Both the position numbers and the translations under genes were made by a program. From the NCBI GenBank assembly GCA_016179185.1, contig JACORW010000080.1:18629-82628 (forward strand): a stretch of DNA of 64,000 nt, written 5' to 3'. The notes under the pieces were generated by a model, which saw only the letters and a list, made by a program, of their open reading frames with translations, was not told the DNA's origin and ran no database searches. Of this stretch, positions 47,844 through 63,488 are shown piece by piece; positions within the stretch are counted from its first letter, which is position 1; the number at the start of each line of letters is the position of its first letter. Origin of the DNA: Gammaproteobacteria bacterium. Its GTDB lineage: Bacteria > Pseudomonadota > Gammaproteobacteria > Eutrophobiales > Eutrophobiaceae.

Positions 47844-48590
47844 TCAGATTTTCCCCCGTGGCAGGAATATGAAGTTCGGAGATTCATCGAAGCGGGTCAC
47901 ACGCACCAGCCTGCCGTCTCTCCACAGGTGGAAGTCGTAATCGAGGTCTTGGAGCAGTTCCTCGAGTTGCGCGATGGTATTCCCGTAGCGCGCGAGCTGC
48001 GCCGCCTTCACCTCCAAAATGAGGCGCGGCCGGAACTTTTCAAGCGTGCGCAAAGCGCCGCGCAGCACGCGGTACTCGGCGCCCTCGACATCGCATTTCA
48101 CCAGCGCGCAGTTGCGGACGTCATGCGACTCGACGAACCGGTCCAGCGTTGTCACTTCCACGGTCTCGAAAATGGCGGGGCCGGACCCGCCCGTTGCCAG
48201 GTGCGCGAGTCCGACGCCGAGGCGGCCGCCGGGCTTGATCGGGATCTCGAGTTGCATCCGGCCGTTTTCATCCGCCACGGCCAGTTCGTGAAAGCTGACG
48301 TTCCGCGTGCGCAGCAGGCGGCACATCAGGCGCAAGCCCGACAGCGTGATCGCGGAGGGCTCGATGGCATGGACCCGGCCTTGCGTGCCGACCAGCGGAG
48401 ACATGACGCGCACGTACTGGCCGTAATTCGCGCCCACATCGATCGCGACATCGCCGGGCCGAAGCAACAACGGCAGCGCGGCGGTCTCCCGCGGCGGCTT
48501 GGGATACACCGCCATCCGCAATATGCGCGGGTATTGCGTGATTCGGCGGTACGCGGCGTCACCCAGCAATCCGCGAATCGCGCGGCGCAT
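47844..48590 (-). CDS. FkbM-family SAM-dependent methyltransferase
   Basis: 'VAIDVGANYGQY' and 'ALVKCDVEGAEYRVLRGA' are typical FkbM-family segments. Confidence 0.75.
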   Translation of the reverse strand: MRRAIRGLLGDAAYRRITQYPRILRMAVYPKPPRETAALPLLLRPGDVAIDVGANYGQYVRVMSPLVGTQGRVHAIEPSAITLSGLRLMCRLLRTRNVSFHELAVADENGRMQLEIPIKPGGRLGVGLAHLATGGSGPAIFETVEVTTLDRFVESHDVRNCALVKCDVEGAEYRVLRGALRTLEKFRPRLILEVKAAQLARYGNTIAQLEELLQDLDYDFHLWRDGRLVRVTRFDESPNFIFLPRGKI

Positions 48591-48594
48591 CCGG

Positions 48595-49230
48595 TCAGTT
48601 CAGGAAATTGCGCAGTTGCTGCGCCATGCTTTGGCAGGCATTGGACTGCACGCGCGCCAGCAGCGGCACCGGAATGAAGATGGCAGGCAGAAACGAAGTG
48701 CCCTGGGTTTCGGTATTGATTTTCCCCGACAATGTCAGTTCCTTGAAATCCCAGATGCTGGCCTCGTAATTGGCCTCGTCATCCCAGGTGGCGAAACCGA
48801 AACAGCCGCCGCCGCCCGGGCCGATGGCGCAGGAAATGGACCCCTTGCTGTTCACGGTCTCGGTAAAGCCGTCGATCCAGACGAAATAGCGCACGCCGAA
48901 ATTCTGGAATTTCTGTTTGATCTCCGGGATCTGCGCCAGCCGTTCCAGGTTTTTCACGTCCGTGGGCGCGGTGCTGGTTTCAAAATAGGGGTACATGGAA
49001 TCAACGAAGGTTTTCTCCGGAACCACGTTGATGGGATTGCCGCCGCGCGTCAGGTTCTCGCCGACGCAGCGAATGAAATCATCCTCGGTCTCATGCTCGC
49101 TGTTGCTGCGCCGCCCGAGCACGACGATGGACTCGCCGGTGGCAATGTGCGTTGCCGCGATGCGGTGTTCGTCTATGACCGTCGTGCTCTTGCAGCCGGC
49201 GCCCAGGATGAGCACGCCCAGGAGCCGCAT
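48595..49230 (-). CDS. Lipoprotein of unknown function
   Basis: Table ORF to 49293, trimmed to 'MRLLGVLILGAGC' (lipobox LGAGC). No family recognised. Confidence 0.55.
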   Translation of the reverse strand: MRLLGVLILGAGCKSTTVIDEHRIAATHIATGESIVVLGRRSNSEHETEDDFIRCVGENLTRGGNPINVVPEKTFVDSMYPYFETSTAPTDVKNLERLAQIPEIKQKFQNFGVRYFVWIDGFTETVNSKGSISCAIGPGGGGCFGFATWDDEANYEASIWDFKELTLSGKINTETQGTSFLPAIFIPVPLLARVQSNACQSMAQQLRNFLN

Positions 49231-49276
49231 CAGTTGCGCGCGCGGCGTTCGCCGCGGATATTGCGCAACGCAGCGA

Positions 49277-49933
49277 TCAGCAGGCGTCTCCATAACGGTT
49301 GCAATCCCGGGTTTTCAACGCCAGCCAGCGCCGCACGTCCGGTACCTTCTCGAAACCCAGCGCCAGTTTCGCCCCGGCGTCGCGCATCGCAAGATTGATG
49401 GCCGTGGACAGGCCGTCGTCCTTGCTTTTCAGGATCGCGGTCTCGACCTTGCCATAGCCGGTCAACGGCCACTCGGCCACGAGTTGGCCGTCGCTGTCGT
49501 ATAACTGCAGTTGGTACTTGATCCAGGCTTCATACAGTTCGGTCTTGGTCTCCGTCGGCAGCGCGAACTGCATCTCCGCAACGCGCGGCGCGATGACGCC
49601 CGCCACACCGCCGACGCCGGTCGTCGCGGCGGCCGGAGTGACGGCTTCAAACATTGACGGCAGGATGCGATCGAACAGCGCCACCTGGGAATCGCCGCTC
49701 TCTATTTTCCAGTCCGGCCGGTCCTCGGTATTCTCGGTGTATGCGTATGTGCGCAGCACCGGGTCGTAGTACACGCCTAGGTTCAGCGGTATCCGGTTCA
49801 CGGTGGGGATTGGGACCTCGCTGTCCACTTTAATCTGCACCGATTGGGTGCACGCGGTCGCAAGCGCCAGCACGCCGAGGGTCAACGCCCGGCAAAGCAG
49901 CAAGGTGATGAATTGGTGGTTGGTTTGGCGCAT
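49277..49933 (-). CDS. Lipoprotein of unknown function
   Basis: Table ORF to 50005, trimmed to 'MRQTNHQFITLLLCRALTLGVLALATAC' (lipobox LATAC). No family recognised. Confidence 0.55.
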   Translation of the reverse strand: MRQTNHQFITLLLCRALTLGVLALATACTQSVQIKVDSEVPIPTVNRIPLNLGVYYDPVLRTYAYTENTEDRPDWKIESGDSQVALFDRILPSMFEAVTPAAATTGVGGVAGVIAPRVAEMQFALPTETKTELYEAWIKYQLQLYDSDGQLVAEWPLTGYGKVETAILKSKDDGLSTAINLAMRDAGAKLALGFEKVPDVRRWLALKTRDCNRYGDAC

Positions 49934-49988
49934 ACGGATCGGCCTGCCGAACGCTGGTTCGACCCGGTTTCCGTCCCGGGGTTCCGGA

Positions 49989-51020
49989 TCAGAACGGTGT
50001 CCCAATAGTGTAGCGGAATTTCTCCCGGGTGCCGCGAAAGTCGTTCAACCCCACGAATGTGCCCATGTTTTTCCGGGTCATTTCCCGCATCAGGTTGGCG
50101 AAACGGGCGCCGGTGATCTGCTGCTGGGCCGCGAACTGCACCGGGAACCCGATGGCGTGGATACGGATCTGCGGCACGCCGTCATTGTTTTTCGGGTTCA
50201 GCCGCTCGACCTCGTCCAGTACCCGCCGCACTGAATCGCCGGTGAAATCGTCGCCGAACACGTAGATGCTGATGCGCCGGTCCGGTTCGTGATAAGTCCG
50301 GATCGCCTTCTCAATACCCTCCACCGGGCTGCTGTTGCTGAACGGATTCCAGGTGCGCAGGCGATCCAGGATGATCTTGCGCCGCGCGGGCGAATCCGGG
50401 ATCCATTTCCCGCGGTAATCCTGGAACATGTAGCCGCCCTGGTCGTCCATGACCTGGATGCCTTTCACCTTCGGATAGATCTCCAGCACGCCGATCATCT
50501 CCTGCATGACGCGGTTCCACGCGTACTGGAACATGCTGCCGGACGTGTCAATGACGAAGATGACGTATTCGCTGTCCACGGGGATGCCGCCGACCAGATC
50601 GGTGCGCACCTGCTCGCGCCGGGCCGACAGGCGGCGCATTTCTTCGGTCAGATTCTGCAGCGCGGCCTGCAATTCGCCCTTGCGCGCGGCATTGGCGCTG
50701 GCCGATTTTTCCATGCCGGCGGCGTGATCGCGCAGGGCGCCAAATTCTCGGGCAAGCCGCGCCACCCGCTCCTTGATCTCGGACAGCTGTTCGCGCGCCG
50801 CGGTCAGGTCCCGGTTCAACACGCGCGCCTCGCCGCGGATCTCGAACAGCTTTTCCTGCATGTCGGCGATGATGCCGTCCAGGGACTGCGGCGCCGGTTC
50901 CAGTACCAATGGTTCCCCCGGTTTCGAGATCATTATCAGCAGGATGATGGCGCCAAGTCCGCAGGTGATCACGTCCAGGAAGGACAGGCTGAACGCCTCC
51001 GCGCCGCGCCGCCGTCTCAT
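49989..51020 (-). CDS. ExbD/TolR-like TM anchor + coiled coil + VWA domain protein (paralogue B, partly degenerate MIDAS)
   Basis: 'MRRRRGAEAFSLSFLDVITCGLGAIILLIMI' (single TM with Asp), a heptad-like Glu/Arg/Leu-rich stretch, and VWA 'YVIFVIDTSGSM'. ATGA overlap with the upstream gene. Confidence 0.7.
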   Translation of the reverse strand: MRRRRGAEAFSLSFLDVITCGLGAIILLIMISKPGEPLVLEPAPQSLDGIIADMQEKLFEIRGEARVLNRDLTAAREQLSEIKERVARLAREFGALRDHAAGMEKSASANAARKGELQAALQNLTEEMRRLSARREQVRTDLVGGIPVDSEYVIFVIDTSGSMFQYAWNRVMQEMIGVLEIYPKVKGIQVMDDQGGYMFQDYRGKWIPDSPARRKIILDRLRTWNPFSNSSPVEGIEKAIRTYHEPDRRISIYVFGDDFTGDSVRRVLDEVERLNPKNNDGVPQIRIHAIGFPVQFAAQQQITGARFANLMREMTRKNMGTFVGLNDFRGTREKFRYTIGTPF

Positions 51021-52108
51021 GGCCAGTCCGCCGCCGGGCTCAGGAACGATCCGCCGCTGGCTACGGCCAGGCCCCAGAACGAAAACGCCGCCATGGGATC
51101 GCCCTCCATGGGCAGCAGGATGGTATTGACTGGAACATTGTTGGGAAGCTGGTTTGCGGCGGCATTGAACAGCTTCAAGCGTTCGTTGCCGGTGACCTTG
51201 CCGCCGCGGCGGGGCGTCGAGATACCCTGGGTCGGCAGCCCGTCGGTGATCAGGTACACGTTATCCGGCAGCGGGCGCAATCGCGCCACGGCCTGGAATG
51301 CGCGTTCCAGGCTGGTCCCCCCGTCCGGAGCGGCGTCGCGCGCCGCCTGCACCGCCGTTTCCAGTTGTCCGGCATTGGCGACGTCCAGCCACTGACCCTC
51401 GGTGCCGGGCACGGCCGCTTTCACGTCGGTGTCGAACAGGTACACCTGGAATTTTCCACCCACCGGAAAGCGCGTCGTCAACCAGTCCAGCGTGGCCACC
51501 GCCTGGCGCCATTTCCGCGATCCGGTCCTGCGTTCGTCGGTCATGTTCCTGCGCCGGATCACGTTTACCAGGGTTTCATCGAGCATGCTGGCCGAGGTGT
51601 CCAGCAACACCAATATCCGGTCGCCGCCGATCTGCAGGCCGGTGAGATACTGCCGCGTCCCTTCGCCACTGAAGGCCCGGGTGTGTTCCCCGGTCTTGGC
51701 CTGCTCCAATTCCAGCTGCTGCTTCTTCTGCTCCAGGTCGCGGATCTGGGCCTCCAGTGCGGCCAGCTCATCCGTGGCGGAGCTGGCCCGCTTTGCGTCC
51801 GTATCACCCTGCGCCTCCCGGATCTGATCCTGTATGCGGCGCGCCATCCCCTCCGCGATTACCCTTTGCTGCTCCAGCCCGTCAATGGTGTTGCGCAGCT
51901 CCGCGAGTCCTTTTTGACCATCCCGCACCTCGCGATCCAGCAGATTGACCTCGGCGCGCTGATCCGGCGGTGTGTCGGCGGCGGGCACGGTGGCATTGAC
52001 ATTGTGCTTGATGATCAGAAACAACAACACCATCGCCCCGAGCCCGCAGGACATGATGTCCAGGAACGACAGGCTGAAGGTGGGCAGCGGGCGGCGGTTA
52101 CGTGGCAT
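51017..52108 (-). CDS. ExbD/TolR-like TM anchor + coiled coil + VWA domain protein (paralogue A, complete MIDAS)
   Basis: Table ORF (TTG) to 52180, trimmed to the ATG at 52108. 'MPRNRRPLPTFSLSFLDIMSCGLGAMVLLFLII', a coiled-coil-like stretch, and VWA 'ILVLLDTSASM ... DGGTSLERAF ... VYLITDGLPT'. Confidence 0.7.
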   Translation of the reverse strand: MPRNRRPLPTFSLSFLDIMSCGLGAMVLLFLIIKHNVNATVPAADTPPDQRAEVNLLDREVRDGQKGLAELRNTIDGLEQQRVIAEGMARRIQDQIREAQGDTDAKRASSATDELAALEAQIRDLEQKKQQLELEQAKTGEHTRAFSGEGTRQYLTGLQIGGDRILVLLDTSASMLDETLVNVIRRRNMTDERRTGSRKWRQAVATLDWLTTRFPVGGKFQVYLFDTDVKAAVPGTEGQWLDVANAGQLETAVQAARDAAPDGGTSLERAFQAVARLRPLPDNVYLITDGLPTQGISTPRRGGKVTGNERLKLFNAAANQLPNNVPVNTILLPMEGDPMAAFSFWGLAVASGGSFLSPAADWP

Positions 52109-53426
52109 CCGGGTGCGTGGTGCTGATGAGTGAGTAAACCGTATCCGAGCCGGCAAAGCTGATCTTGTCGCCGGCGGCAAGCCGGCGCGGGCCGTCTACA
52201 CGTTCGCCGTCCACGTAAATGGTGATGTCGGCGAGCGGCGTGATGCGGATGTCCATGCCGTTTCCGGTGATGGAGCACGACGATGTAGGCTGCGCCGCGG
52301 TACCGATGGACCCGCGCGCGGAAAGGTAGAGCGTGCGATCGGATACCGGATAGGCCAGGTAGCCGTGCAACAGATGGGTGGCCGCCCGGCTGTCCCGGGC
52401 CGGGCGCCGGGCGGTGACGGCCTCGGGATCGGCTGAGCGCAGCGCGGCCGCTTCCGGAGCCGGCAGTCTGGTTACAAAATTCAGGTTGGGGCCGCCGCTC
52501 TGGATGCGCTCCAGGTGCGCCAGGCAGCCGCGCCGGACCGCGTCCTCACCCAGTACCGGCGCCGCGCCGCATGCGGCCGCAAGTCCGGGCATAGCGGCGG
52601 CGCGATCGCCCAGCAGCGCCATTCGGCCCGGTTCCAGCCGTTGCACGATGGCGGCATATTCCCTTTGCAGCCGCGCGACCATCCCGTCTCGGGTGACGCG
52701 CGCCTGCTGGCGCGATCTGCCTGCGGCAATGTCCAGCAGGATCTCGTGTTGCGACTGCAGTGCGGCGAGACAGCGCGGCAACTGATCGTAAACCGCCTGT
52801 TCGGTCTCGGCGCGATGCAACGGGTCGAAGCGCGACTGTTGAATGAATGCGTCCGCGACCAGCTCCGCGGCAGCATCATGGAACGCCAGTATGCCGCTTC
52901 CTTCCACCACATCCACGCTTTGCCGCTGTACCTCGTTGCCCACGTCAATGCGCGTCAGCACTGCCTGGTGTAGTTGCAGTTCAATGTGCTGATATCTGCC
53001 GGCGCCCGCGACGGATGCGGCGGCTGCCACCGCGGCATCCACCAGGCCGGCTGCTTTGAAGGAGCAGGATTGGCTGATGCCCAGCAGCAATGACAGTTGC
53101 GCGGAGGAAAAACTGCCGGGGACCGCAAAAATGACCTGTTCCGGTTTGCCGGCCTGTTCGTGCAGCAACCGCAGGTGATGCCAGGCCAGATCCGCGTTGT
53201 GCCGCAGCGTGCCGGCGGCATCCGGCCAAGGCTCCTGACTCAGCGCCGACCAGAACCGGTTGTAGGTGTTGCGCGGATGCAGATGCGCGACTTGCGCGGC
53301 CTGTTCTCCGAGTTTCAGCTCGTTGCCCTGGATCACGGCTATGCCGGGGCTGCGCAACAGCGGCCGATCGCCGCGGCTGACGCGTATGTCGGCATCGTTG
53401 AGCTCGATGATGCACGGTGGCGCCAT
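52098..53426 (-). CDS. Degenerate Hsp70/actin-fold protein with an FHA-like C-terminal beta domain
   Basis: 'EQVIFAVPGSFSSAQLSLLLGISQSCSFKAAGLVDAAVAAAAS' parallels DnaK '[44 protein letters not shown]'. The phosphate motifs are replaced ('IIELNDADIRVS', 'IELQLHQAVLTRI'). The C-terminal 'ITIYVDGERVDGPRRLAAGDKISFAGSDTVYSLI' is FHA-like. Confidence 0.5.
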   Translation of the reverse strand: MAPPCIIELNDADIRVSRGDRPLLRSPGIAVIQGNELKLGEQAAQVAHLHPRNTYNRFWSALSQEPWPDAAGTLRHNADLAWHHLRLLHEQAGKPEQVIFAVPGSFSSAQLSLLLGISQSCSFKAAGLVDAAVAAAASVAGAGRYQHIELQLHQAVLTRIDVGNEVQRQSVDVVEGSGILAFHDAAAELVADAFIQQSRFDPLHRAETEQAVYDQLPRCLAALQSQHEILLDIAAGRSRQQARVTRDGMVARLQREYAAIVQRLEPGRMALLGDRAAAMPGLAAACGAAPVLGEDAVRRGCLAHLERIQSGGPNLNFVTRLPAPEAAALRSADPEAVTARRPARDSRAATHLLHGYLAYPVSDRTLYLSARGSIGTAAQPTSSCSITGNGMDIRITPLADITIYVDGERVDGPRRLAAGDKISFAGSDTVYSLISTTHPDAT

Positions 53427-53440
53427 GATGGAACGAAGGT

Positions 53441-54238: not shown

Positions 54239-54268
54239 AGGCCGATTTGGATGGGAAGTCAATTAATC

Positions 54269-54390
54269 GGTATCTCGTGAAGCGTATCTCGTGAAGCGTG
54301 TCTCGTATCTTGGACAAACGCTGTCATGCTTGCAGGGCAGATTCGGAGGAATCTTGTCCTGCGAGATACGAGATACGAACGACGAGATAC
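54269..54390. repeat. Intercistronic inverted array of GTATCTCG / CGAGATAC octamers (long imperfect hairpin)
   Basis: Read directly. Three 'G(T/G)(A/G)TCTCGT' units on the left (two as the 14-mer GTATCTCGTGAAGC) face three 'GAGATAC' units on the right across an ~40-nt loop. The array fills the gap between 54397 (stop of the small ORF) and the MotA-like start. Confidence 0.8.
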
Positions 54391-54396
54391 GGGTTT

Positions 54397-54666
54397 TCAT
54401 ATGTCCACCGGAAATGACACCGACAAATCCTCGGAGATTTCCTCGCTGGGCACGAAGGACTCCGGGCTTTTCGATGCGGAGGTCGCCTGCTGCTTCGATG
54501 CCGGTGACGGCGTGGCCGCTCCGGGATCCCCGGCCGGCACGGGCGCCTGCGTTCCGGTTTCCGCCGGTGCAGCTTCAGGTGCTGCGGGAGTTTCATCGGC
54601 GGCGAAGCCCGCGCCGTATAACAGCGCCAGCAATGCCACAACATATGTCGTTCGCAAGATGTTCAT
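54397..54666 (-). CDS. Small secreted Pro/Ala-rich acidic protein
   Basis: 89 aa. Signal peptide 'MNILRTTYVVALLALLYGAGFA', a low-complexity middle, and an acidic tail 'EEISEDLSVSFPVDI'. ATGA overlap with the upstream gene. Confidence 0.5.
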   Translation of the reverse strand: MNILRTTYVVALLALLYGAGFAADETPAAPEAAPAETGTQAPVPAGDPGAATPSPASKQQATSASKSPESFVPSEEISEDLSVSFPVDI

Positions 54667-56744: not shown

Positions 56745-58280
56745 TCAAGTTCCTGCGCCGACGGTTTCGGTGCAGCGTATCTCCACCGGCGCCGGCGCGG
56801 CGCCGGCCGCGAGCGTCAATTCGACGCGCGCGTCCCGGAAACCGGGGCGCGTGCCGACGATCACATGGCGGCCGGGCCTCAACGTGATCTCCTTGCTGAC
56901 AAAGCGGCCCAGCTTGCCGACCCGGTACACGGTTACCTCGGTCTTGCCGTCGGACACGAATGTTACGGCAATCGGGACGCGCGCCTCCTGCAGCAACGCG
57001 GTCAGCGCGGCGATCTGCCGCTTCAGTTTCGTTCCCGGCCCGCTGATCTCCCCGGAATGCAGCAGCAGCGCAGTGGTTTCTTCATATACCGTGTCGTCAG
57101 AGAGCCGCTCCGGCCGCGCAATTGCCAGTGACAATTGCCTGTCCAGATCGCTGCGCCGCGTGGCATTCTCGATCCCGGACTGCGCCGCCAGCAGATTCGC
57201 GTCCAGCTTCAGTGCCGCCTCGTACGCCGAGATTGCGGCGGCCCAGTCCTCGGACTGTTCGGCGGCCTGCGCCGCCGCCAGGTGCCGCCCGATCTCCGCC
57301 GAGGTCAGGCCGGTTTCGGCCTGACGCAGCGCGTCCGCGGCTTCGGGCGAGCCCGGCCGGAGGCGCAGGGCGGCGCTGAAATGCCCACGCGCCGCCCCCA
57401 GATCGCCGTTGTCGAGGGCCGCGAATCCGGCGCTCATTGCGGCCCGGTATGCCCGCGCGCCGAGTTCGCTGCGGGCGTTTTGCAGTCGTTCCCGGGCCGG
57501 TTGAAACTCTGGATCGAGGTCGCTGGCCTTTTGGTATGCCTCCGCCGCGCCGGGCAGATCCCCCGCGCCGGACAGCTCCTCGCCGCGCCGGATCAGCTCG
57601 ATGACCTGATCCATGTGTCCGGCGCGCTCCGCTCCCTTGTGCGCGCCGGGGTCATCCGGGCGGATCAACAATGCCGTATGAAACTGCCCGGCCGCGGCCT
57701 GGCCGTTGCCTTCGTTAAGCGCCTGATTGCCGCGCGCCATCGAGTCCGTGAAAACTGCGTCGGCCCGCCGGATCAACGCTTTGAACCGCGGCAGCGCCGA
57801 CTGGAAGGCATCGCGCGCCGACGCGTAATCCAGGGATCGGTAGAAACGATCGCCTGCGGCGAGACTGTCCGCCCCGGCGCGGTAATCGGCCCCGGCCCAG
57901 GACTGCACGCCCATCGCCAGCAACGCCTGGTCCAGTTCCCGCAACCGCTCCAACAGCTCCTGGGCGGCGGCCCGCGCTGCGCCGATTTCCGTTTTCGTCA
58001 ATTCCGATTGGGTGTCTCCAGGCTTTGGCACCGGTTCCGGGCGCGGGTCAGGCTTTGAGACAGCCGGCTTCGGGGGGGCGGATTCGGTCCGGCCCTGCCA
58101 CTGGGGAAGAACGAAGATCACGAACAGCGCGGCAAGCGTCAGCAAACCGATGACGATGGCGGGCCAAAGCAACGGGCTGCCGGGAGTCCCGGTCACGGGC
58201 GGCGCAACCTCACCCGGCGCGTTGCCGAGCTTTACCGGCGCGGGCGCGATGCGATCAAAGGGATGAGTGGGTTGTTCCAT
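56745..58280 (-). CDS. Membrane-anchored TPR-repeat protein with a PEGA-like C-terminal domain
   Basis: Table ORF to 58343, trimmed to the ATG at 58280 ('MEQPTHPF'). TM 'LLWPAIVIGLLTLAALFVIFVL', then repeated Ala/Leu-rich 34-mer-like units. The tail 'VTFVSDGKTEVTVYRVGKLG...LRPGRHVIVGTRPGFRDARVEL' is PEGA-like. Its stop abuts the next ATG. Confidence 0.65.
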   Translation of the reverse strand: MEQPTHPFDRIAPAPVKLGNAPGEVAPPVTGTPGSPLLWPAIVIGLLTLAALFVIFVLPQWQGRTESAPPKPAVSKPDPRPEPVPKPGDTQSELTKTEIGAARAAAQELLERLRELDQALLAMGVQSWAGADYRAGADSLAAGDRFYRSLDYASARDAFQSALPRFKALIRRADAVFTDSMARGNQALNEGNGQAAAGQFHTALLIRPDDPGAHKGAERAGHMDQVIELIRRGEELSGAGDLPGAAEAYQKASDLDPEFQPARERLQNARSELGARAYRAAMSAGFAALDNGDLGAARGHFSAALRLRPGSPEAADALRQAETGLTSAEIGRHLAAAQAAEQSEDWAAAISAYEAALKLDANLLAAQSGIENATRRSDLDRQLSLAIARPERLSDDTVYEETTALLLHSGEISGPGTKLKRQIAALTALLQEARVPIAVTFVSDGKTEVTVYRVGKLGRFVSKEITLRPGRHVIVGTRPGFRDARVELTLAAGAAPAPVEIRCTETVGAGT

Positions 58281-58449
58281 GGCAATAAGGGCGCGGTTGC
58301 AATCATTGCATGCATTTATCGGCCGGCGTAAAGCCGGCCCCACAAGAATCTCTGGAATCCGAACGCCCTTGTGGGGCCGGGTTCATCCCGGCCGGGAGGC
58401 GCGCATCGGAAAATAGACACTTGAGGTCCGGAAGACCTCGTGCTTGATG

Positions 58450-59679
58450 TTACTGTTCTCTTACCGGCAGTGTCGGTGCCGTCCCGGTCTCGGTGCGATA
58501 GATCTCCTGCAGGATCTCGCGCCACTGCGCGTACTGCTGATCTACCGTACCGGACAGCGTGACGGTCCGATCCTCCAGCTCCATCCGGTGCGGCTGAATG
58601 TCCGCGTCAAGGGAGGCGGCGATTTCCTTCAACGACTCCAGGTGCAGTTTCGCCTCGGCGTTGCGGTCCAGCCCGCTCTTCACGAGCATCGCGCCGGCGC
58701 CGATGCCGGTCAGTCCGCCCAGCGTGCCCAGCGTCCGCAGGCCGGGATCGCTGCTGTTGGCGCCAAAATAGATGGCGGCTATGCTGGCGGCGATGGCCGC
58801 AATGCCGCCCACGGTGCGCGCCGCCGCGGAACCACGCGCCTCATGCAACTGCCGGATCTCGGAATAGCTTTCGTTGCGCCATTGCAGATAGGGACTGCGC
58901 ATCTTCGCCGCGTAGCCGGTGTAGTGGTCCTGAAGGGTATCCACGAACAGATTGTCGCGCTCACGGATGCGCCGCAGCCGCTCCATCAACGGGTCATTGT
59001 CGGCGGGCAGGCGCGCGATGCTGTATCGCCCCTTGCCGTCCCGGGTCAGGTATCCCGAGTAAATCTCCGGAGCGAAACGCTCGGCAAAGCGCAATTCGCT
59101 GATGGTGCGCAACGCACTCACCTGCGCCGGGGTTATCTGGCTGCGAAACGCGGCCATGTCGCTGGCGATGCGGTTGTAAAGCCCCTGGAACGGTTCGATG
59201 CTGCGGCTCAGTTCCTTGTCGTAGGCGTACTTGCTGGCCTCTGCCTCATAGGTGCGGGTAAACCAGGTCTTGCCGGAGGAGTCCTGCACCGTGATCTGCA
59301 ACTTCAGAAATTCGCCGTCGGACTGGAGGATGACGCCGTCCACAAATACGTCCATTTCGCTGCGTTGTCCCGGGACCACGCGCACAACGCCCCAATTGCC
59401 CGTGTTCTGCAGCGTCGTGGCAAGCAGGGTCGGGAAATAACGCGCCTCGGCCTGGCGCACTTCCGGATAGATCAGTTCCAGTTCCTTGTCGCTCAATCCC
59501 TCGGTGCCGGGATTGAAAATGTTTACGCCGACGTCCAGCAGCATCGCTTCCGGGACCGCGCCGGTGGGGTCGGCGCGCACCGGCGTCTGGGACGTGGTCT
59601 TGACCGTGGTGGTGTTGCAGCCCGGCAGCAGCAGCGCTACCAGCAACGACGCGATCAATGTGCGCAGGGACGTCATCAT
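58450..59679 (-). CDS. Lipoprotein with C-terminal glycine-zipper-like hydrophobic segments
   Basis: 'MMTSLRTLIASLLVALLLPGC' lipobox. 'VGGIAAIAASIAAIYFGA ... LGTLGGLTGIGAGAMLV'. No family recognised. Confidence 0.55.
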   Translation of the reverse strand: MMTSLRTLIASLLVALLLPGCNTTTVKTTSQTPVRADPTGAVPEAMLLDVGVNIFNPGTEGLSDKELELIYPEVRQAEARYFPTLLATTLQNTGNWGVVRVVPGQRSEMDVFVDGVILQSDGEFLKLQITVQDSSGKTWFTRTYEAEASKYAYDKELSRSIEPFQGLYNRIASDMAAFRSQITPAQVSALRTISELRFAERFAPEIYSGYLTRDGKGRYSIARLPADNDPLMERLRRIRERDNLFVDTLQDHYTGYAAKMRSPYLQWRNESYSEIRQLHEARGSAAARTVGGIAAIAASIAAIYFGANSSDPGLRTLGTLGGLTGIGAGAMLVKSGLDRNAEAKLHLESLKEIAASLDADIQPHRMELEDRTVTLSGTVDQQYAQWREILQEIYRTETGTAPTLPVREQ

Positions 59680-60851
59680 TCCTTCACCGGTATGCCCTTG
59701 TATTTGCGATATTCATTCCAGAGTTTCTCCCGCAGCACAGGGTCGGGTTCCTGCATGGCCGCCTCGCGCAACTGGCGCGCGACCACGTCGTCGTCATTTC
59801 CGCGCGGAATGTCCTGCGGTACCGCGGCCACGGCGACCGGCCCATGATCCCCGGCGCGCTCCGGCACAGGCAGATCCGGCATGCCGCCACCAGCGGAATT
59901 GGAATTACGGTTTCCCCTGCCGCCACCGCCGGTCAGCGGTGGAGGCGCATCACCACTGCCGCCCGCCCCGGTCCCCTCTTCGCCGTCATCCCCGGACTCG
60001 TCGCCGACACCAGGTCCGGTGCCCTCATCATCGGCGCCCACGGTACCGCTGTCCCGCTGCCGGGCGGCCGCCGCGGCGCGTTCCTCCAGCAGCATGCCGT
60101 CGAACTTTGCCAGCTGCTCGCCCAGGCGTCCGTCCAGCAATACAACCTGCTCACCCTGGGTGACGGCGCCGCCGGGAGCGGTGCCTGCGCCGGTGCTTCC
60201 GGAAGTTCCCGCAGTGGAGCCGGTGGTTCCCGCGCCGGGCGAACCGCCGGCGATGGTGGTTCCACCGCCCGGCGCCGCACCCGCAGGCGGACTCCCGGCC
60301 GTGCCCACGCCTTGCGCGTCGTTACCTCCGGCGGTGCCGGCTCCCGCTTCTGACGAAGCCGTCAACGGCGGCGGGCTGTCGGATTCGGAACCCGGCGCTG
60401 GCGCGCTCTGCATGCCTTTGTCGAAGGTTTCCAGTGCCGCCTCCAGCACTTCTTCGTCGGACTGCGATTTGCCCGACGCCCCGGTATTGTCCTCGGCGGC
60501 AGGCGCACCGGCAGCCGGGTCACCGGCTCCCGTGGCCGGGAGACCCGCGGGGGGCGCACCGGCATTCGCCTGCGCTGCGGCGTCTGGCGGGGCGGATTCG
60601 CCGGGTTGCGATGGGGCGGATTCAGACCGGGCCGTCGTGGGTTCCGCAGCCGATTCGGACTGGGACCGGCTCTGTTCGCTGGCGGGAGGACTCGTCGCGG
60701 GCGAAGGGGGCGATTGCGTCGAACTCTGCGGCGGCTGCGGCATCGCCGGCGGAGTCGGCTGGCTCGGAGGCGTCGAACACGCGGCTGCGGCGGCCAGAAT
60801 CAACCCGCACGCGAACTGGTGTCCATGCCGGCGCAGAAAGATTGTGTCCAT
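59676..60851 (-). CDS. Lipoprotein with a very long Pro/Ala/Ser/Gly-rich disordered region and a short conserved-looking helical C-terminus
   Basis: 'FACGLILAAAAAC' lipobox, about 300 aa of low complexity, and the tail 'DDDVVARQLREAAMQEPDPVLREKLWNEYRKYKG'. ATGA overlap with the next gene. Confidence 0.55.
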   Translation of the reverse strand: MDTIFLRRHGHQFACGLILAAAAACSTPPSQPTPPAMPQPPQSSTQSPPSPATSPPASEQSRSQSESAAEPTTARSESAPSQPGESAPPDAAAQANAGAPPAGLPATGAGDPAAGAPAAEDNTGASGKSQSDEEVLEAALETFDKGMQSAPAPGSESDSPPPLTASSEAGAGTAGGNDAQGVGTAGSPPAGAAPGGGTTIAGGSPGAGTTGSTAGTSGSTGAGTAPGGAVTQGEQVVLLDGRLGEQLAKFDGMLLEERAAAAARQRDSGTVGADDEGTGPGVGDESGDDGEEGTGAGGSGDAPPPLTGGGGRGNRNSNSAGGGMPDLPVPERAGDHGPVAVAAVPQDIPRGNDDDVVARQLREAAMQEPDPVLREKLWNEYRKYKGIPVKE

Positions 60852-60868
60852 ATATAAATGTGTCCGGA

Positions 60869-62218
60869 TCAGTTGACGGGGACGCGCCTAATCGTGCCCA
60901 CGGTGTCCACAGCCACGCCGTTTTCCAGCCGCGGCCGAAATCGCTTGCCACGGATCGACTCCAGCACCTTGCGCCGCGAAGAGGTCTCCGCCCCGGGGCT
61001 GGTTTCCGTGACCTCCGCGTTGCGGACACGCCCGGTCTTGCTTACGTCATAGCTGACCGTGATGTATTTCGCGGGATTCTCCGGCGCCACCTGCCGGTCG
61101 ACACTCGGCAGCGACAGGCGCAACGCCGGTACGGAAACCGGCGCGCCGAACAATGCCTCGATCACCTTGTCGCCCTCCGGGATGCCCTGAAGCAGTTGCC
61201 ACGCCTTCTGGTAATGTTCCATGGCGGTGCCCGCGCTTCCGCGGAGAATATGCCAGTCGCCCAGATGAACCAGCGCCTCGGCGCGCGATTGCGCCGGCAA
61301 ATCCGGGTGCGCTTCGTGAATGGCGACAACCCGTTCCAGCGACCTGCGCGCCGCGAAAAAACGCCGCTCCACGTCGAGGTCCTTCTCGTCCTGCGCGCGC
61401 GCATAGGTGCCGATATTCGTGACCGGAATCAGGTAACATGACATGCCGATCTGCCCGTTCGGCAATCGTACGGGCATGCAGCGCTGCATGTAGCTCACCG
61501 TGCTGGTGGCCTGGCGCTGTACATATTTGTCCAGCGGCCGGTTCGCATATTCAATCATGGCCTGATAACTGGCCAGTGCGTGTCCGTACCGGAGTTCGAC
61601 CAGGCGTGGGTCGTTTTCGCCGTAGCGTTGCTCGGTCAGTTTGATGGTGCGGGAGAAAAGATCCGCGGCCTCGCTCACCGTCCCGTAGGCCTTGTCCTTC
61701 AGCAGTCCGTCGCGATAGGCCTGAATCTTCCAGCGTCCCACCTCGTCATAAACATTGAGCAGTTCCTGATCCCCTTCTGCGTAATTGCGGCGATAGATCC
61801 ACAGCATCTGGTCGAAGTTCTGATCGACCTCGGCCCAGTCCCGCAGCGCGATCTGGCTCTCTATGATGTCGTGCAGCAGGGGAACCTGGCCGAGATCCTG
61901 CAGTCCGTCGTTGACGCGTTTGATGTGAAACGCGCGCTTCAGCGAATCCACCGCGCGCGTGTGATCCTGCAACTGCTGGTACACGCGTCCCTGGCTCAGC
62001 AATTGTTCCCCGAGCCGGCCGTCATAGGGCCCATAGTCGGACTCGAGCCTGGCGATTTGCTGTTCGTATTGTTCCGCGATGGACAGCAGCTCCACGGACG
62101 TGGCGGACGGCGCGCGGTTGTCGGCGCCGGCAGGCGGTGTTGCGTCCGCGGCGGCGGCGACCGTACACGCAAGTCCCCACGCCACAGCACAACCGGCAAT
62201 AGTCAGTGTCTTGCCCAT
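60869..62218 (-). CDS. Secreted helical-repeat (TPR-like) protein with a TonB_C-like C-terminal domain
   Basis: Signal/lipobox-like 'MGKTLTIAGCAVAWGLACTVAAAADA'. The C-terminal 'YITVSYDVSKTGRVRNAEVTETSPG...KVLESIRGKRFRPRLENGVAVD' follows the TonB C-terminal domain pattern. Confidence 0.5.
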   Translation of the reverse strand: MGKTLTIAGCAVAWGLACTVAAAADATPPAGADNRAPSATSVELLSIAEQYEQQIARLESDYGPYDGRLGEQLLSQGRVYQQLQDHTRAVDSLKRAFHIKRVNDGLQDLGQVPLLHDIIESQIALRDWAEVDQNFDQMLWIYRRNYAEGDQELLNVYDEVGRWKIQAYRDGLLKDKAYGTVSEAADLFSRTIKLTEQRYGENDPRLVELRYGHALASYQAMIEYANRPLDKYVQRQATSTVSYMQRCMPVRLPNGQIGMSCYLIPVTNIGTYARAQDEKDLDVERRFFAARRSLERVVAIHEAHPDLPAQSRAEALVHLGDWHILRGSAGTAMEHYQKAWQLLQGIPEGDKVIEALFGAPVSVPALRLSLPSVDRQVAPENPAKYITVSYDVSKTGRVRNAEVTETSPGAETSSRRKVLESIRGKRFRPRLENGVAVDTVGTIRRVPVN

Positions 62219-63253: not shown

Positions 63254-63257
63254 AGCA

Positions 63258-63488
<231 letters not shown>

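What the first reader, a model, noticed from the sequence alone, without database searches (positions are those of the whole stretch)
47844..62218. Tightly coupled 13-gene envelope cluster combining Ton/Tol/Mot-type motor parts with VWA, Hsp70-fold, PEGA/FGE-sulfatase and TPR proteins: candidate undescribed PMF-powered system
Seen: thirteen same-strand ORFs (62218 down to 47844) have very short junctions. Several are translationally coupled: ATGA overlaps at 59676/59679, 54663/54666 and 51017/51020, TGA directly followed by ATG at 56745/56744, and an 11-nt overlap at 52098/52108. Gene order: (1) a secreted TPR-like protein ending in a TonB_C-like domain; (2) a Pro/Ala/Ser-rich lipoprotein; (3) a lipoprotein with Gly-zipper segments; (4) a membrane-anchored TPR protein; (5) a membrane-anchored 5xPEGA + FGE-sulfatase protein; (6) a small secreted acidic protein; (7) a MotA/ExbB/TolQ-type channel; (8) a degenerate Hsp70-fold protein with an FHA-like tail. 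(9, 10) are two paralogues whose single TM helix looks like the ExbD/TolR helix but whose periplasmic part is coiled coil + VWA. (11, 12) are two lipoproteins and (13) is an FkbM methyltransferase. Established: ExbB/TolQ/MotA oligomers house ExbD/TolR/MotB dimers and convert proton flow into work passed to TonB_C- or peptidoglycan-binding partners. Myxococcus Agl-Glt is a precedent for an expanded Tol-like machine with two TolR paralogues, TonB_C-domain proteins, TPR proteins and lipoproteins. Inference: this is a Ton/Tol-like energised trans-envelope complex whose stator plug carries a metal-dependent adhesion (VWA/MIDAS) output instead of a canonical ExbD/TolR periplasmic domain. I cannot map this gene set onto any characterised system I know (Ton, Tol-Pal, Mot, Agl-Glt, Zorya, Bat/MoxR).
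Basis: partly seen in the sequence, partly recalled or inferred. Interest (0 to 1): 0.85.

Follow-up and report, generated by a model that had tools for sequence, protein, structure and literature searches.

The report
TolQ-like motor operon with VWA partners
This is a conserved 12-gene operon of marine and soil Gammaproteobacteria, probably a proton-driven Tol/Ton-type envelope machine in which two adhesion-type (VWA) proteins replace the usual TolR/ExbD subunit. A 2025 paper already predicted the motor core by computer, but I found no description of the other nine components, and the function is unknown.

Summary
Thirteen co-directional ORFs lie at 47844-62218 with the reported overlaps, and nearly every domain call was confirmed: MotA_ExbB, 4-5 PEGA plus FGE-sulfatase, TPR, TonB_C, VWA, an Hsp70-NBD fold with an FHA-like tail, and FkbM.

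Genes 1-12 are strictly colinear in all 80 related genomes fetched, out of 283 species that carry the marker gene. Gene 13 (FkbM) is never linked and is not part of the system.

The two VWA proteins are ancient paralogues built as TM helix, ~95-residue coiled coil and VWA domain with an intact MIDAS motif. Each has an invariant Asp in an 'SFLD[IV]' helix, positioned like TolR D23 and ExbD D25. The TolQ-like protein keeps both pore threonines. No ExbD/TolR/MotB gene is present.

Apparently new are the conserved accessory proteins:
- a cytoplasmic pseudo-Hsp70/FHA protein;
- a PorK/GldK-like PEGA-FGE protein that lacks the catalytic cysteines;
- two TPR proteins, four lipoproteins and a small acidic secreted protein.

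Distant variants keep only the motor plus the VWA pair. Function is untested.

The parts
60869..62218 (-). g1: secreted TPR protein (449 aa) ending in a TonB_C domain
   Evidence: Signal peptide read from the sequence. TPR_12 and TonB_C are weak in this copy, but TonB_C matches 14 of 17 orthologues and TPR_12 matches 15 of 17. Present at the first position in 39 of 80 loci; many loci are cut at the contig end.
59676..60851 (-). g2: lipoprotein (391 aa) with a long Pro/Ser/Ala/Gly-rich linker and a conserved C-terminal motif DDD[IV]VARQLREAA..DP.LREKLW.EYRKYKG
   Evidence: Lipobox AAAC. The C-terminal motif is conserved across 61 orthologues. No Pfam, NCBIfam or PADLOC match.
58450..59679 (-). 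g3: lipoprotein (409 aa) with two Gly-rich hydrophobic segments (about aa 285-336) and a conserved C-terminal domain
   Evidence: Lipobox LPGC. Found in 67 of 80 loci. No Pfam match, and no relative among solved structures by profile search. A g3-like gene is also present in the distant variant L084.
56745..58343 (-). g4: bitopic inner-membrane TPR protein (532 aa; the likelier start is the ATG at 58280) with a C-terminal beta domain and a conserved cytoplasmic N-terminal motif GF.RI[KE]PA.[IV].L
   Evidence: TPR_2 at 40 bits and TPR_1 at 34 bits. TM helix read from the sequence. The I.PA motif occurs in 53 of 68 orthologue tails. Found in 69 of 80 loci. g4-like genes are present in variants L084 and L086.
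54663..56744 (-). g5: bitopic inner-membrane protein (693 aa) with 4-5 PEGA domains and a non-catalytic FGE-sulfatase (PorK/GldK-like) domain. Its cytoplasmic tail carries the motif I[KRE]P.[KR]F[EK]P
   Evidence: PEGA at 172 bits and FGE-sulfatase at 128 bits. GldK model at 87 bits, below the 350 cut-off. Matches PDB FGEs at E 3e-20 and PorK at E 1.6e-13. The two catalytic Cys of FGE align with non-Cys residues ('W.AHGTV.TELR' against 'YlCHdsyCnryR'). Found in 77 of 80 loci.
54397..54666 (-). g6: small secreted acidic protein (89 aa) with a conserved C-terminus F.PSEEISEDLSVSFPVDI
   Evidence: Signal peptide read from the sequence. The C-terminal motif is conserved in 46 loci. It is under-detected by tblastn because it is short and of low complexity.
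53441..54238 (-). g7: MotA/TolQ/ExbB-type proton channel subunit (265 aa)
   Evidence: PF01618 at 49.3 bits against a cut-off of 22.9. T189 ('GFLGTVRGI') and T222 ('FNSTLIAL') are conserved in at least 97% of 78 orthologues and align with the 'GLFGTVWGI' and 'ATAIGL' threonines of E. coli TolQ. Found in 78 of 80 loci, at 55-90% identity.
52098..53426 (-). g8: cytoplasmic Hsp70-NBD-fold protein (442 aa) without the Gly-rich phosphate loops, with a C-terminal FHA-like beta domain (about aa 350-435)
   Evidence: No Pfam match. AF2 model with pLDDT 90. Foldseek top hits are DnaK/Hsp70 NBDs at E 1e-15. Profile search of the tail matches afadin, KIF13B, Ki-67 and EssC FHA structures at E 0.004-0.2. 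Some family members carry PF00498, or the UniRef name 'FHA domain-containing protein'. The family has at least 549 clusters, all named 'hypothetical'.
51017..52108 (-). g9: VWA1 (363 aa): short basic N-tail, TM helix with invariant D17, coiled coil (about aa 50-145), and a VWA domain with MIDAS residues D170-S172-S174, T265 and D289
   Evidence: VWA_2 at 26.7 bits, E 9e-6. Invariant columns are listed. Paralogue of g10 by hhalign at 99.3% probability. Found in 78 of 80 loci.
49989..51020 (-). g10: VWA2 (343 aa): TM helix with invariant D16, coiled coil (aa 48-141), and a VWA domain (aa 150-325) with MIDAS residues D158-S160-S162 and D257
   Evidence: AF2 model: VWA part at pLDDT 80-90, whole protein 66. 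Foldseek matches VWA domains at E 9e-7 to 1e-4, including ITIH1, 4fx5, ANTXR2 and vWF A3. Invariant columns are listed. NCBI names orthologues 'VWA domain-containing protein'. The family has 301 clusters at 50% identity with E<=1e-30.
49277..49933 (-). g11: lipoprotein A (about 218 aa from the ATG at 49933; the longest ORF starts at 50005)
   Evidence: Lipobox ATAC. Found in 71 of 80 loci. No Pfam match and no PDB relative by profile search.
48595..49230 (-). g12: lipoprotein B (about 211 aa from the ATG at 49230; the longest ORF starts at 49293), with the conserved motif GPGGGGCFGFATWDDEANYEASIWDF and four invariant Cys
   Evidence: Lipobox GAGC. Found in 64 of 80 loci at 36-71% identity. No Pfam match and no PDB relative.
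47844..48590 (-). g13: FkbM-type methyltransferase. It is adjacent and possibly co-transcribed here, but is NOT part of the conserved system
   Evidence: Methyltransf_21 at 78.7 bits. Linked in 0 of 80 related loci. In 25 loci an M48 peptidase gene occupies this position instead.

Best explanation
Genes g1-g12 form one operon for a trans-envelope machine built around a proton-driven 5:2-type motor.

Proposed core (inferred): five copies of the TolQ/ExbB-like g7 form the channel. A heterodimer of the paralogues g9 and g10 takes the place of the TolR/ExbD/MotB dimer. Their TM helices sit in the pore, and their invariant Asp residues (D17 and D16), facing the g7 threonines T189 and T222, take up and release protons.

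Proposed output (inferred): in place of a peptidoglycan- or TonB-binding domain, each partner carries a ~95-residue coiled coil. At about 0.15 nm per residue this is a stalk of roughly 14 nm (my estimate). Each stalk ends in a VWA domain with an intact metal-ion site (MIDAS). Proton flow would therefore turn or pull a metal-dependent 'gripper' in the periplasm.

Likely ligands and scaffold (inferred): the co-conserved envelope proteins.
- the inner-membrane TPR protein g4;
- the PEGA plus PorK/GldK-like protein g5, whose FGE domain has lost the catalytic cysteines and is probably structural;
- the periplasmic TPR-TonB_C protein g1;
- the small acidic protein g6;
- the lipoproteins g2, g3, g11 and g12, whose residues after the lipobox Cys (S/N/T/K, no Asp) suggest outer-membrane sorting.

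Cytoplasmic side (inferred): g8 is the only cytoplasmic component. It has an Hsp70-NBD fold with degenerate nucleotide loops plus an FHA-like domain. I propose it docks the conserved N-terminal tail motifs of g4 and g5 and/or the large cytoplasmic loop of g7, acting as a hub or regulator.

Shown versus inferred: the gene content, domain folds, conserved residues and synteny are shown. The 5:2 assembly, the heterodimer, the ligand identity, the lipoprotein sorting, the role of g8 and the physiological output are inferred. My best guess for the output is Tol-Pal-like envelope tethering or remodelling.
For: g7 is a MotA_ExbB family member above Pfam's gathering score. It keeps both pore threonines in at least 97% of 78 orthologues, aligned with those of E. 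coli TolQ.

None of the 13 products matches ExbD, TolR or MotB.

g9 and g10 are paralogues (hhalign 99.3%; cross-HMM E-values of 1e-10 to 1e-20 even in distant variants). Both have an invariant Asp early in the TM helix, in 'SFLD[IV]'. This lines up with TolR 'PLLDV' (D23) and ExbD 'PFIDV' (D25) and follows a short basic tail.

VWA identity: g10 is a VWA domain by Foldseek at E about 1e-6, and g9 matches Pfam VWA_2 at E 9e-6. The DxSxS and distal Asp residues of MIDAS are invariant in both. Long helices at 48-141 are predicted for g10.

Synteny: g1-g12 are colinear and same-strand in 80 of 80 loci from different species. The core genes are present in 78-80 loci, and independent gene calls agree.

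Distant variants (g10 at 35-37% identity) always keep g7 plus VWA1 plus VWA2. They shuffle or lose g3, g4, g5 and g8.

PMC12204202 reports AlphaFold 3 models of this class in which the two Asp residues sit inside the Thr ring of a TolQ-like pentamer.

g8 fold. g8 FHA-like tail. Tail motifs of g4 and g5.
Against: There is no experimental datum for any member of this class.

The anchors of g9 and g10 give no statistically significant match to ExbD or TolR, so the homology claim rests on a short motif and on gene context.

I could not run a multimer prediction. The 5:2 stoichiometry and the g9/g10 heterodimer are therefore unverified for these sequences.

I could not compare directly with the Idiomarina proteins of the published class.

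The g10 model is only moderately confident overall (pLDDT 66).

g8's FHA assignment is weak: Pfam FHA matches only 1 of 26 members, at E 0.027.

No outer-membrane beta-barrel or obvious cargo is encoded in the cluster, so the output of the machine is a guess.
Confidence: 0.6

Rival explanations
1. A surface-motility or secretion apparatus analogous to the Bacteroidota T9SS/gliding motor (GldL, GldM, GldK/PorK ring, TPR lipoprotein PorW) or to Myxococcus Agl-Glt. In this reading the motor drives movement or export of a surface component rather than envelope tethering.
For: g5 carries a PorK/GldK-type non-catalytic FGE domain. The part list loosely parallels GldKLMN plus PorW and Agl-Glt: a motor, long bitopic periplasm-spanning partners, TPR proteins, a TonB_C protein and several lipoproteins. 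PMC12204202 itself speculates about gliding for vWA transducers.
Against: No GldL, GldM, GldN, SprA or Glt equivalog scores anywhere near its cut-off; GldK scores 87 bits against 350. No outer-membrane translocon, adhesin or barrel is encoded. The VWA domains are anchored to the inner membrane and cannot reach a substratum. Carriers are mostly planktonic or sediment Gammaproteobacteria MAGs with no known gliding.
Confidence: 0.15
2. A static Bat-like VWA/TPR envelope scaffold or sensor. In this reading the VWA proteins and TPR proteins assemble without mechanical work, and g7 acts only as an ion-conducting or signalling subunit that reports to the cytoplasmic g8.
For: Membrane-anchored VWA proteins paired with TPR proteins are the hallmark of Bat-type operons. 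There is a weak BatC TPR hit of 19 bits. g8 looks like a regulatory pseudo-enzyme.
Against: No MoxR ATPase, DUF58 or BatA/BatD-type protein is present. The motor-type Asp and Thr residues are invariant over large evolutionary distances, which is hard to explain without proton coupling. The g7 plus VWA pair is the invariant core.
Confidence: 0.12
3. An anti-phage defence system of the Zorya type, in which a MotA/MotB-like sensor motor is coupled to effectors.
For: Zorya shows that 5:2 motors can be recruited for defence. There is a weak ZorA hit (14.5 bits, E 0.003). One distant variant lies next to a ZorA-like cluster.
Against: No other PADLOC model matches, and there is no nuclease, ATPase or ZorB/C/D-like effector. 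Eleven of the 12 products are membrane, periplasmic or lipoproteins. The order is strictly conserved in at least 80 species, with partly conserved housekeeping flanks (SDR, ETF) rather than a variable island. There is no homologue on any plasmid in PLSDB.
Confidence: 0.05

Closest known systems
TPH-vWA / TolQ-like motors predicted in 'Origin and Evolution of Bacterial Periplasmic Force Transducers' (Mol Biol Evol 2025, PMC12204202, section 8, Fig. 4c-d)
   Same: A tolQ-like gene with no tolR/exbD nearby. A heterologous pair of TM-tethered vWA proteins. A TolR/ExbD-like trans-pore helix with a conserved Asp facing a conserved Thr ring. No SHLS motif. Found in Proteobacteria. Function unknown.
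   Different: The paper's text describes only the motor and the vWA pair. Here these sit in a conserved 12-gene operon with a pseudo-Hsp70/FHA gene between tolQ and the vWA pair, plus PEGA-FGE, TPR and TonB_C proteins, four lipoproteins and a small acidic protein. I could not see Fig. 4c, nor compare with the Idiomarina seed sequences.
Tol-Pal (TolQRA-TolB-Pal)
   Same: A TolQ-type channel with the two pore Thr residues. A partner helix with Asp at the same position. An envelope-spanning set that includes lipoproteins and TPR proteins (compare CpoB).
   Different: No TolR periplasmic domain and no TolA, TolB or Pal. The output domain is coiled coil plus VWA. There is an extra cytoplasmic component.
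Ton (ExbB-ExbD-TonB)
   Same: A MotA_ExbB channel. An ExbD-like Asp helix. A TonB_C domain is present in the cluster (g1).
   Different: The TonB_C domain sits on a secreted TPR protein with a signal peptide, not on a TM-anchored Pro-rich TonB with an SHLS helix. There is no ExbD domain and no TonB-dependent transporter gene.
T9SS / gliding motor GldLM with the GldK/PorK-GldN ring
   Same: A 5:2-type motor partnered with a long bitopic periplasm-spanning protein. A non-catalytic FGE-sulfatase-fold protein (g5 matches PorK at E 1.6e-13). TPR proteins and lipoproteins.
   Different: No GldL, GldM, GldN, SprA or PorV homologues. g5 is TM-anchored with PEGA repeats rather than being a lipoprotein. 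The host phylum is different.
Myxococcus Agl-Glt focal-adhesion machine
   Same: A Tol-like motor with more than one TolR-type paralogue, TonB_C-domain proteins, TPR proteins, lipoproteins and a VWA protein (CglB).
   Different: In Agl-Glt the VWA protein is an outer-membrane adhesin, not the motor's axle. No Glt orthologues were detected here. Here the cytoplasmic partner is Hsp70-like/FHA-like rather than MreB/AglZ/MglA.

Membership tests
TPH-vWA/TolQ-like motor class (PMC12204202) | A tolQ-like (MotA_ExbB) gene tightly linked to the vWA genes | tested here: met
   g7 matches PF01618 at 49.3 bits. It is linked to g9 and g10 in 78 of 80 loci and in three distant variants.
TPH-vWA/TolQ-like motor class (PMC12204202) | No tolR/exbD/motB gene in the cluster | tested here: met
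   None of the 13 products matches ExbD (PF02472) or OmpA/MotB.
TPH-vWA/TolQ-like motor class (PMC12204202) | A heterologous pair of TM-tethered vWA proteins | tested here: met
   g9 matches VWA_2 at E 9e-6. g10 has a VWA fold at E about 1e-6. They are paralogues by hhalign at 99.3%. A TM helix is predicted.
TPH-vWA/TolQ-like motor class (PMC12204202) | A conserved proton-binding Asp in a TolR/ExbD-like trans-pore helix, and no SHLS motif | tested here: met
   g9 D17 and g10 D16 are invariant and align with TolR D23 and ExbD D25. There is no His in either helix.
TPH-vWA/TolQ-like motor class (PMC12204202) | A conserved Thr ring in the pentamer lumen | tested here: met
   g7 T189 and T222 are conserved in at least 97% of orthologues and align with the TolQ threonines.
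TPH-vWA/TolQ-like motor class (PMC12204202) | A predicted 5:2 complex with both helices inside the pentamer | not testable with these tools
TPH-vWA/TolQ-like motor class (PMC12204202) | Sequence homology to the Idiomarina loihiensis seed proteins | not tested
   The paper and the supplements held give no accession or sequence.
ExbD/TolR (PF02472) | A profile match, and an ExbD/TolR periplasmic alpha/beta domain | tested here: not met
   No Pfam hit for the full proteins or for their first 50 residues, even at E<=10. The family HMMs do not score E. coli ExbD or TolR. The periplasmic part is coiled coil plus VWA.
MotA/TolQ/ExbB (PF01618) | A profile match above the gathering score | tested here: met
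   49.3 bits against 22.9. It is not an equivalog of TolQ (19.7 bits against 221) or ExbB (20.3 against 135).
Tol-Pal | TolA, TolB and Pal encoded with TolQR | tested here: not met
   No TolA, TolB or Pal/OmpA matches among the products.
Ton system | A TM-anchored TonB (SHLS helix, Pro-rich linker, TonB_C) | tested here: not met
   TonB_C is present in g1, but on a secreted TPR protein with a cleavable signal peptide.
T9SS GldKLMN | GldK, GldL, GldM and GldN equivalogs | tested here: not met
   GldK TIGR03525 scores 87 bits against a cut-off of 350. There are no GldL, GldM or GldN hits.
Agl-Glt | AglRQS and GltA-K orthologues | tested here: inconclusive
   No such NCBIfam hit, but I do not know whether that library holds Glt models.
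Zorya | ZorA with a long tail, ZorB, and ZorC/D or ZorE effectors | tested here: not met
   Only a 14.5-bit ZorA hit on the shared MotA_ExbB region; nothing else.
Bat/MoxR aerotolerance operon | A MoxR AAA+ protein, DUF58, and BatA/BatB VWA proteins | tested here: not met
   No AAA+ or DUF58 protein. BatC scores 19 bits against a cut-off of 175.
Hsp70 (g8) | The nucleotide-binding-domain fold | tested here: met
   Foldseek E 1e-15 and TM-score 0.65-0.69 against DnaK and mortalin NBDs, from a model with pLDDT 90.
Hsp70 (g8) | A profile match, Gly-rich phosphate-binding loops, and a substrate-binding domain | tested here: not met
   No Pfam HSP70 hit in 26 members. Where I recall Hsp70's phosphate-1 loop (DLGTT) and phosphate-2 loop (DLGGGT), the family has 'IELND' and 'ELQLHQ' with no Gly. 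This mapping uses the strand order of the model and is my own reading. An FHA-like domain replaces the substrate-binding domain.
FHA (g8 tail) | A profile match and the phosphothreonine-binding Arg/Ser/His residues | tested here: inconclusive
   Profile against PDB FHA domains gives E 0.0035-0.2. Pfam FHA matches 1 of 26 members. A few relatives carry PF00498. As far as I can place them by eye against the FHA motif as I remember it, the canonical Arg and His positions are not conserved in the family consensus.
Formylglycine-generating enzyme (g5 C-terminal domain) | A fold/profile match | tested here: met
   PF03781 at 128 bits. Matches PDB FGEs at E 3e-20.
Formylglycine-generating enzyme (g5 C-terminal domain) | The catalytic Cys pair | tested here: not met
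   In the alignment to the FGE chains 6muj and 2q17, the two Cys of the target's 'CHdsyC' stretch face non-Cys residues in g5. That these two Cys are the catalytic pair is my recollection.
VWA / MIDAS | A VWA fold with DxSxS...T...D | tested here: met
   Invariant residues are D170/S172/S174/D289 in g9 and D158/S160/S162/D257 in g10.

The most novel reading that the evidence does not exclude
The 12 products assemble into a previously uncharacterised kind of trans-envelope nanomachine of Gammaproteobacteria. A TolQ-like pentamer would turn a heterodimeric coiled-coil/VWA axle whose metal-dependent heads engage a PorK-like PEGA-FGE scaffold and a set of outer-membrane lipoproteins. A cytoplasmic pseudo-Hsp70/FHA hub would bind the tail motifs of g4 and g5 and gate or localise the motor. 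This would be a third solution for sending proton-motive energy to the outer envelope, beside TonB/TolA-type and GldM-type transducers, with its own physiological role.
Probability: 0.35. Interest if true: 0.8.

Novelty: new variant of a known kind. Interest (0 to 1): 0.55.

Why it matters
Gram-negative bacteria have no ATP or ion gradient at the outer membrane. Every known way of sending energy there (Ton, Tol-Pal, Agl-Glt, T9SS) has proved biologically important.

This locus gives the recently predicted vWA-axle motor class a full, strongly conserved parts list: 12 proteins in four compartments. It also gives concrete residues to mutate:
- the Asp residues of the two VWA proteins (g9 D17, g10 D16);
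- the pore threonines of g7 (T189, T222);
- the two MIDAS sites;
- the cytoplasmic tail motifs of g4 and g5.

It also identifies cultured carriers in which the function can be tested: Microbulbifer harenosus, Elongatibacter sediminis, Sessilibacter and Marinibactrum. A cytoplasmic Hsp70-fold/FHA partner for a Tol-type motor, as far as I know, has no precedent.

Tried and rejected
- PADLOC defence models: nothing beyond a 14.5-bit ZorA hit on the shared channel domain.
- ExbD/TolR profile matches of the VWA-protein anchors: none, either with Pfam at E<=10 or with family HMMs against E. coli TolR and ExbD.
- Sequence-profile searches of PDB. The g3, g11 and g12 families gave no relatives. The g9 and g10 profiles gave only coiled-coil noise, and the VWA domain was not detected this way.
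- Pfam on g8 and 25 relatives: no HSP70 hit; FHA in 1 of 26.
- Promoter and terminator scan of 47000-64000: counts no different from shuffled sequence, so this gives no evidence for or against a single transcript.
- PLSDB plasmids with g10: no match.
- Literature searches for the gene set. Only PMC12204202 is relevant. The eLife 2020 vWA/Hsp70 conflict-systems paper (PMC7159879) concerns MoxR- or GTPase-centred cytoplasmic systems without MotA/ExbB and was rejected as a match.
- Finding the Idiomarina seed of the published class: no accession in the paper or the supplements held. Named members of low-identity clusters were all uncultured. A search seeded from an Alteromonadaceae g8 returned Microbulbifer but no Idiomarina.
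- FkbM (g13) as a system component: rejected, 0 of 80 loci.

Full report
**1. The observation**

The window is about 63% G+C throughout, with no compositional break at the cluster. Thirteen minus-strand ORFs fill 47844-62218.

- ATGA overlaps at g2/g3, g5/g6 and g9/g10;
- TGA directly followed by ATG at g4/g5;
- an 11-nt overlap at g8/g9.

Other gaps are 17, 14 and 4 nt. Two junctions are longer: g3/g4 is 106 nt, or 169 nt if the ATG at 58280 is the true start, which the orthologues suggest. g6/g7 is 158 nt.

A consensus scan found no more promoter- or terminator-like sites than in shuffled sequence, so it says nothing about transcript structure.

The ORF at 54324-54644 is an alternative-frame artefact. 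The real small gene is 54397-54666, whose C-terminal 'SFPVDI' motif is conserved elsewhere.

**2. What each product is**

Profile searches confirm the following:
- g7 is a MotA/TolQ/ExbB channel (49.3 bits against a gathering score of 22.9).
- g5 has PEGA repeats (172 bits) followed by an FGE-sulfatase domain (128 bits).
- g4 is a TPR protein.
- g13 is an FkbM methyltransferase.

g1's TonB_C domain is sub-threshold in this copy. It is found in 14 of 17 orthologues, with a best E-value of 1.5e-9.

g9 reaches VWA_2 at 26.7 bits, just under the cut-off of 27. g10 has no usable Pfam hit. Its AlphaFold2 model shows a TM helix (2-31), long helices (48-141) and an alpha/beta domain (150-325). That domain matches VWA domains in Foldseek at E 9e-7 to 1e-4.

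g8 has no Pfam hit in any of 26 family members. Its model is confident (pLDDT 90). Foldseek puts DnaK, Hsp70 and mortalin nucleotide-binding domains on top (E 1e-15, TM-score 0.65-0.69).

Where I recall Hsp70's Gly-rich phosphate loops, the g8 family has 'IELND' and 'ELQLHQ', without glycines. 'Degenerate' is therefore a fair description.

The last ~90 residues of g8 form a beta domain. Its profile weakly matches the FHA domains of afadin, KIF13B, Ki-67 and EssC (E 0.0035-0.2). A few relatives carry Pfam FHA, or the UniRef name 'FHA domain-containing protein'.

The FGE domain of g5 aligns with bacterial FGEs (E 3e-20) and with PorK of the type IX secretion system (E 1.6e-13). The two Cys of the FGE 'CHdsyC' stretch, which I recall as the catalytic pair, face non-Cys residues in g5. 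The domain is therefore probably structural, as I recall for PorK/GldK.

g2, g3, g11 and g12 have lipoboxes. g1 and g6 have signal peptides. g4, g5, g9 and g10 have one TM helix after a cytoplasmic tail. g3, g11 and g12 have no relatives in Pfam or among solved structures.

**3. Is it a unit?**

The g8 family has at least 549 clusters, all annotated 'hypothetical'. I used it to fetch loci from one-genome-per-species collections. 283 species encode a relative, and the best 80 were kept with 10-kb flanks.

tblastn of the 13 window proteins against these loci gave these counts out of 80:
- g8 in 80;
- g7, g9 and g10 in 78 each;
- g5 in 77;
- g11 in 71, g4 in 69, g3 in 67, g12 in 64, g2 in 61;
- g1 in 39 and g6 in 37;
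- g13 in none.

Many absences are loci cut at contig ends. g6 is short and of low complexity.

Wherever the genes are present, their order and strand are always 1-2-3-4-5-6-7-8-9-10-11-12, without a single rearrangement. Independent gene calls in two further genomes reproduce the architecture, including the complete genome of the cultured Microbulbifer harenosus.

The conserved unit is therefore 12 genes, and FkbM is a local neighbour. In 25 of the 80 loci a secreted M48-type peptidase gene follows g12 directly. It lies within 6 kb in 36 loci. The window has no such gene.

The flanks are ordinary metabolic genes. The divergent SDR gene upstream of g1 recurs in about 12 loci. This argues for a chromosomal, vertically inherited system rather than a mobile island.

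Carriers are almost all Gammaproteobacteria: many unnamed MAGs, Porticoccaceae, Cellvibrionaceae, Pseudohongiellaceae, Alteromonadaceae, Microbulbifer, and Elongatibacter of the Wenzhouxiangellaceae. A few records are labelled Klebsiella, Enterobacteriaceae, Planctomycetota or Phenylobacterium, and these labels look unreliable.

**4. The motor signature**

g9 and g10 are paralogues (hhalign 99.3%).

In 78 and 76 orthologues respectively, the TM helix begins 'FS[LI]SFLD[IV]' with an invariant Asp: D17 in g9 and D16 in g10.

I took E. coli TolR and ExbD from the K-12 record. They have 'VPLLDV' (D23) and 'TPFIDV' (D25) at the same distance from a short basic or acidic N-tail.

In g7, 'GFLGTVRGI' (T189) and 'FNSTLIAL' (T222) are at least 97% conserved. 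They align with the 'GLFGTVWGI' and 'ATAIGL' threonines of TolQ.

No ExbD, TolR or MotB domain is encoded anywhere in the cluster.

The anchors give no statistically significant profile match to ExbD or TolR. This is the limit of what a ~25-residue helix can show. Formally, g9 and g10 are not members of PF02472.

Both VWA domains keep the MIDAS residues invariant: D170/S172/S174/T265/D289 in g9 and D158/S160/S162/D257 in g10. This points to metal-dependent binding of an acidic ligand.

**5. How far the system extends**

An exhaustive search with g10 finds 301 clusters at 50% identity with E<=1e-30 and 724 with E<=1e-10. Most are 310-345 residues long and match end to end.

I looked at three relatives at 35-37% identity and scored them with HMMs of the 12 families:
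- L086 has g4-like, g5, g7, VWA1 and VWA2, and no g8.
- L085 has g7, a 495-residue g8-like gene, VWA1 and VWA2, and no g5.
- L084 has VWA1 and VWA2 next to a second operon with g3-like, g4-like, g5 and g7.

In each case, one gene is an orthologue of g9 and the other of g10, so the duplication is old. The invariant core is g7 plus the heterologous pair. The remaining genes are modules that come and go. The window carries the fullest version.

**6. Comparison with what is known**

A literature search found that this core has already been predicted. 'Origin and Evolution of Bacterial Periplasmic Force Transducers' (Mol Biol Evol, June 2025, PMC12204202) describes the following:
- the proteins are 'predominantly found in heterologous pairs';
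- they lack the SHLS motif and have a TolR/ExbD-like trans-pore helix with the conserved Asp;
- AlphaFold 3 places that Asp inside the conserved Thr ring of a TolQ-like pentamer.

The paper reports the class from Proteobacteria and Verrucomicrobia, with no phenotype known.

Every feature that I could test is met here (see the membership table). I could not test two things. One is a multimer model. The other is direct homology to the paper's Idiomarina seed, for which no sequence is given.

The text of that paper does not mention an Hsp70-like, FHA, PEGA or FGE partner. No other paper searched describes the gene set. I could not see its Fig. 4c, which may display the neighbouring genes.

The system is not Tol-Pal (no TolA, TolB or Pal). 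It is not Ton, because the TonB_C domain sits on a secreted TPR protein. It is not T9SS: the GldK model scores 87 bits against 350, and there is no GldL, GldM or GldN. It is not Zorya. It is not Bat/MoxR, as there is no AAA+ protein.

**7. Most likely mechanism**

Shown:
- a TolQ-type channel with motor-critical threonines;
- two co-conserved partners with an Asp-bearing helix, a ~95-residue coiled coil and MIDAS-competent VWA heads;
- co-inheritance with two bitopic scaffold proteins, two periplasmic proteins, four lipoproteins and one cytoplasmic pseudo-Hsp70/FHA protein.

Inferred:
- a 5:2 complex in which the g9/g10 heterodimer is the axle, driven by protonation cycles of the two Asp residues;
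- a stalk of about 14 nm (my estimate at roughly 0.15 nm per residue) that places the VWA heads near the peptidoglycan or outer-membrane lipoproteins, where MIDAS grips an acidic ligand. The conserved acidic C-terminus of g6 and the conserved C-terminal motif of g2 are candidates;
- work is done on the envelope, with Tol-Pal-like tethering or remodelling as my best guess.

I add one new, testable idea. The cytoplasmic tails of g4 and g5 both carry a conserved short motif about 20-25 residues before the TM helix. In g4 it is 'GF.RI[KE]PA.[IV].L', with I.PA in 53 of 68 tails. In g5 it is 'I[KRE]P.[KR]F[EK]P'. g8 is the only cytoplasmic protein of the system and could dock these tails, much as I recall PilM binding the tail of PilN or FtsA binding FtsN.

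Confidence in the motor-level explanation is 0.6. The physiological role is open.

**8. Verdict**

Its core is not new, it counts one gene too many, and the ExbD/TolR homology lacks statistical support.

I file the locus as a new variant of a recently predicted, experimentally uncharacterised kind. Interest is moderate to high because the full parts list, the cytoplasmic partner and the cultured carriers make the class directly testable.

Noticed in passing
L083:14788-15486; L087:14897-16351; 25 of the loci L001-L080, directly after the g12 orthologue: A secreted M48-family metallopeptidase gene (HExxH) follows the last lipoprotein gene in 25 of 80 related loci, and lies within 6 kb in 36 of 80. 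It may be a facultative 13th component. The window has no homologue; FkbM occupies the slot.
   Followed up: partly
window 58200-58343 (g4 tail) and 56640-56744 (g5 tail): The cytoplasmic N-terminal tails of the two bitopic scaffold proteins share a conserved short motif (g4 'RI.PA..L', g5 'I.P..F.P') about 20-25 residues before the TM helix. These are possible docking peptides for the cytoplasmic Hsp70/FHA-like g8.
   Followed up: partly
L086:6125-8960 (minus strand): Next to a minimal variant of the system lies a three-gene cluster on the opposite strand. Its 425-aa product hits MotA_ExbB and ZorA-like_t1. It is probably an unrelated Zorya-type defence locus.
   Followed up: no
window 54324-54644 (-): A 106-aa Arg/Pro-rich ORF overlaps g6 in another frame. 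It is an artefact of the high G+C content, not a gene.
   Followed up: yes
window 62531-63253 (+): A divergent short-chain dehydrogenase gene lies upstream of g1. The same arrangement recurs in about 12 related loci and in L083. ETF and AMP-binding genes also recur nearby, so the neighbourhood is partly syntenic and housekeeping-like.
   Followed up: partly
window 43128-45410 (+) and 44807-47755 (+): Two long same-strand ORFs, one with a spermine-synthase-like domain and one YfhO-like (982 aa), overlap by about 600 nt as listed. The true start of the second is probably later. Together with FkbM they suggest a glycan or polyamine-related envelope locus next to the cluster.
   Followed up: no
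L007, L017, L019, L061, L073 and others (record titles): MAG records that carry the cluster are labelled Klebsiella pneumoniae, Enterobacteriaceae, Planctomycetota or Phenylobacterium. Given 35-50% identity to clearly gammaproteobacterial marine and soil lineages, these labels look like mis-binning or default names.
   Followed up: no
L087:20768-21196 (-): Microbulbifer harenosus has a canonical ExbD gene about 6 kb beyond the cluster, on the other strand. The vWA motor therefore coexists with ordinary Ton/Tol components rather than replacing them.
   Followed up: no
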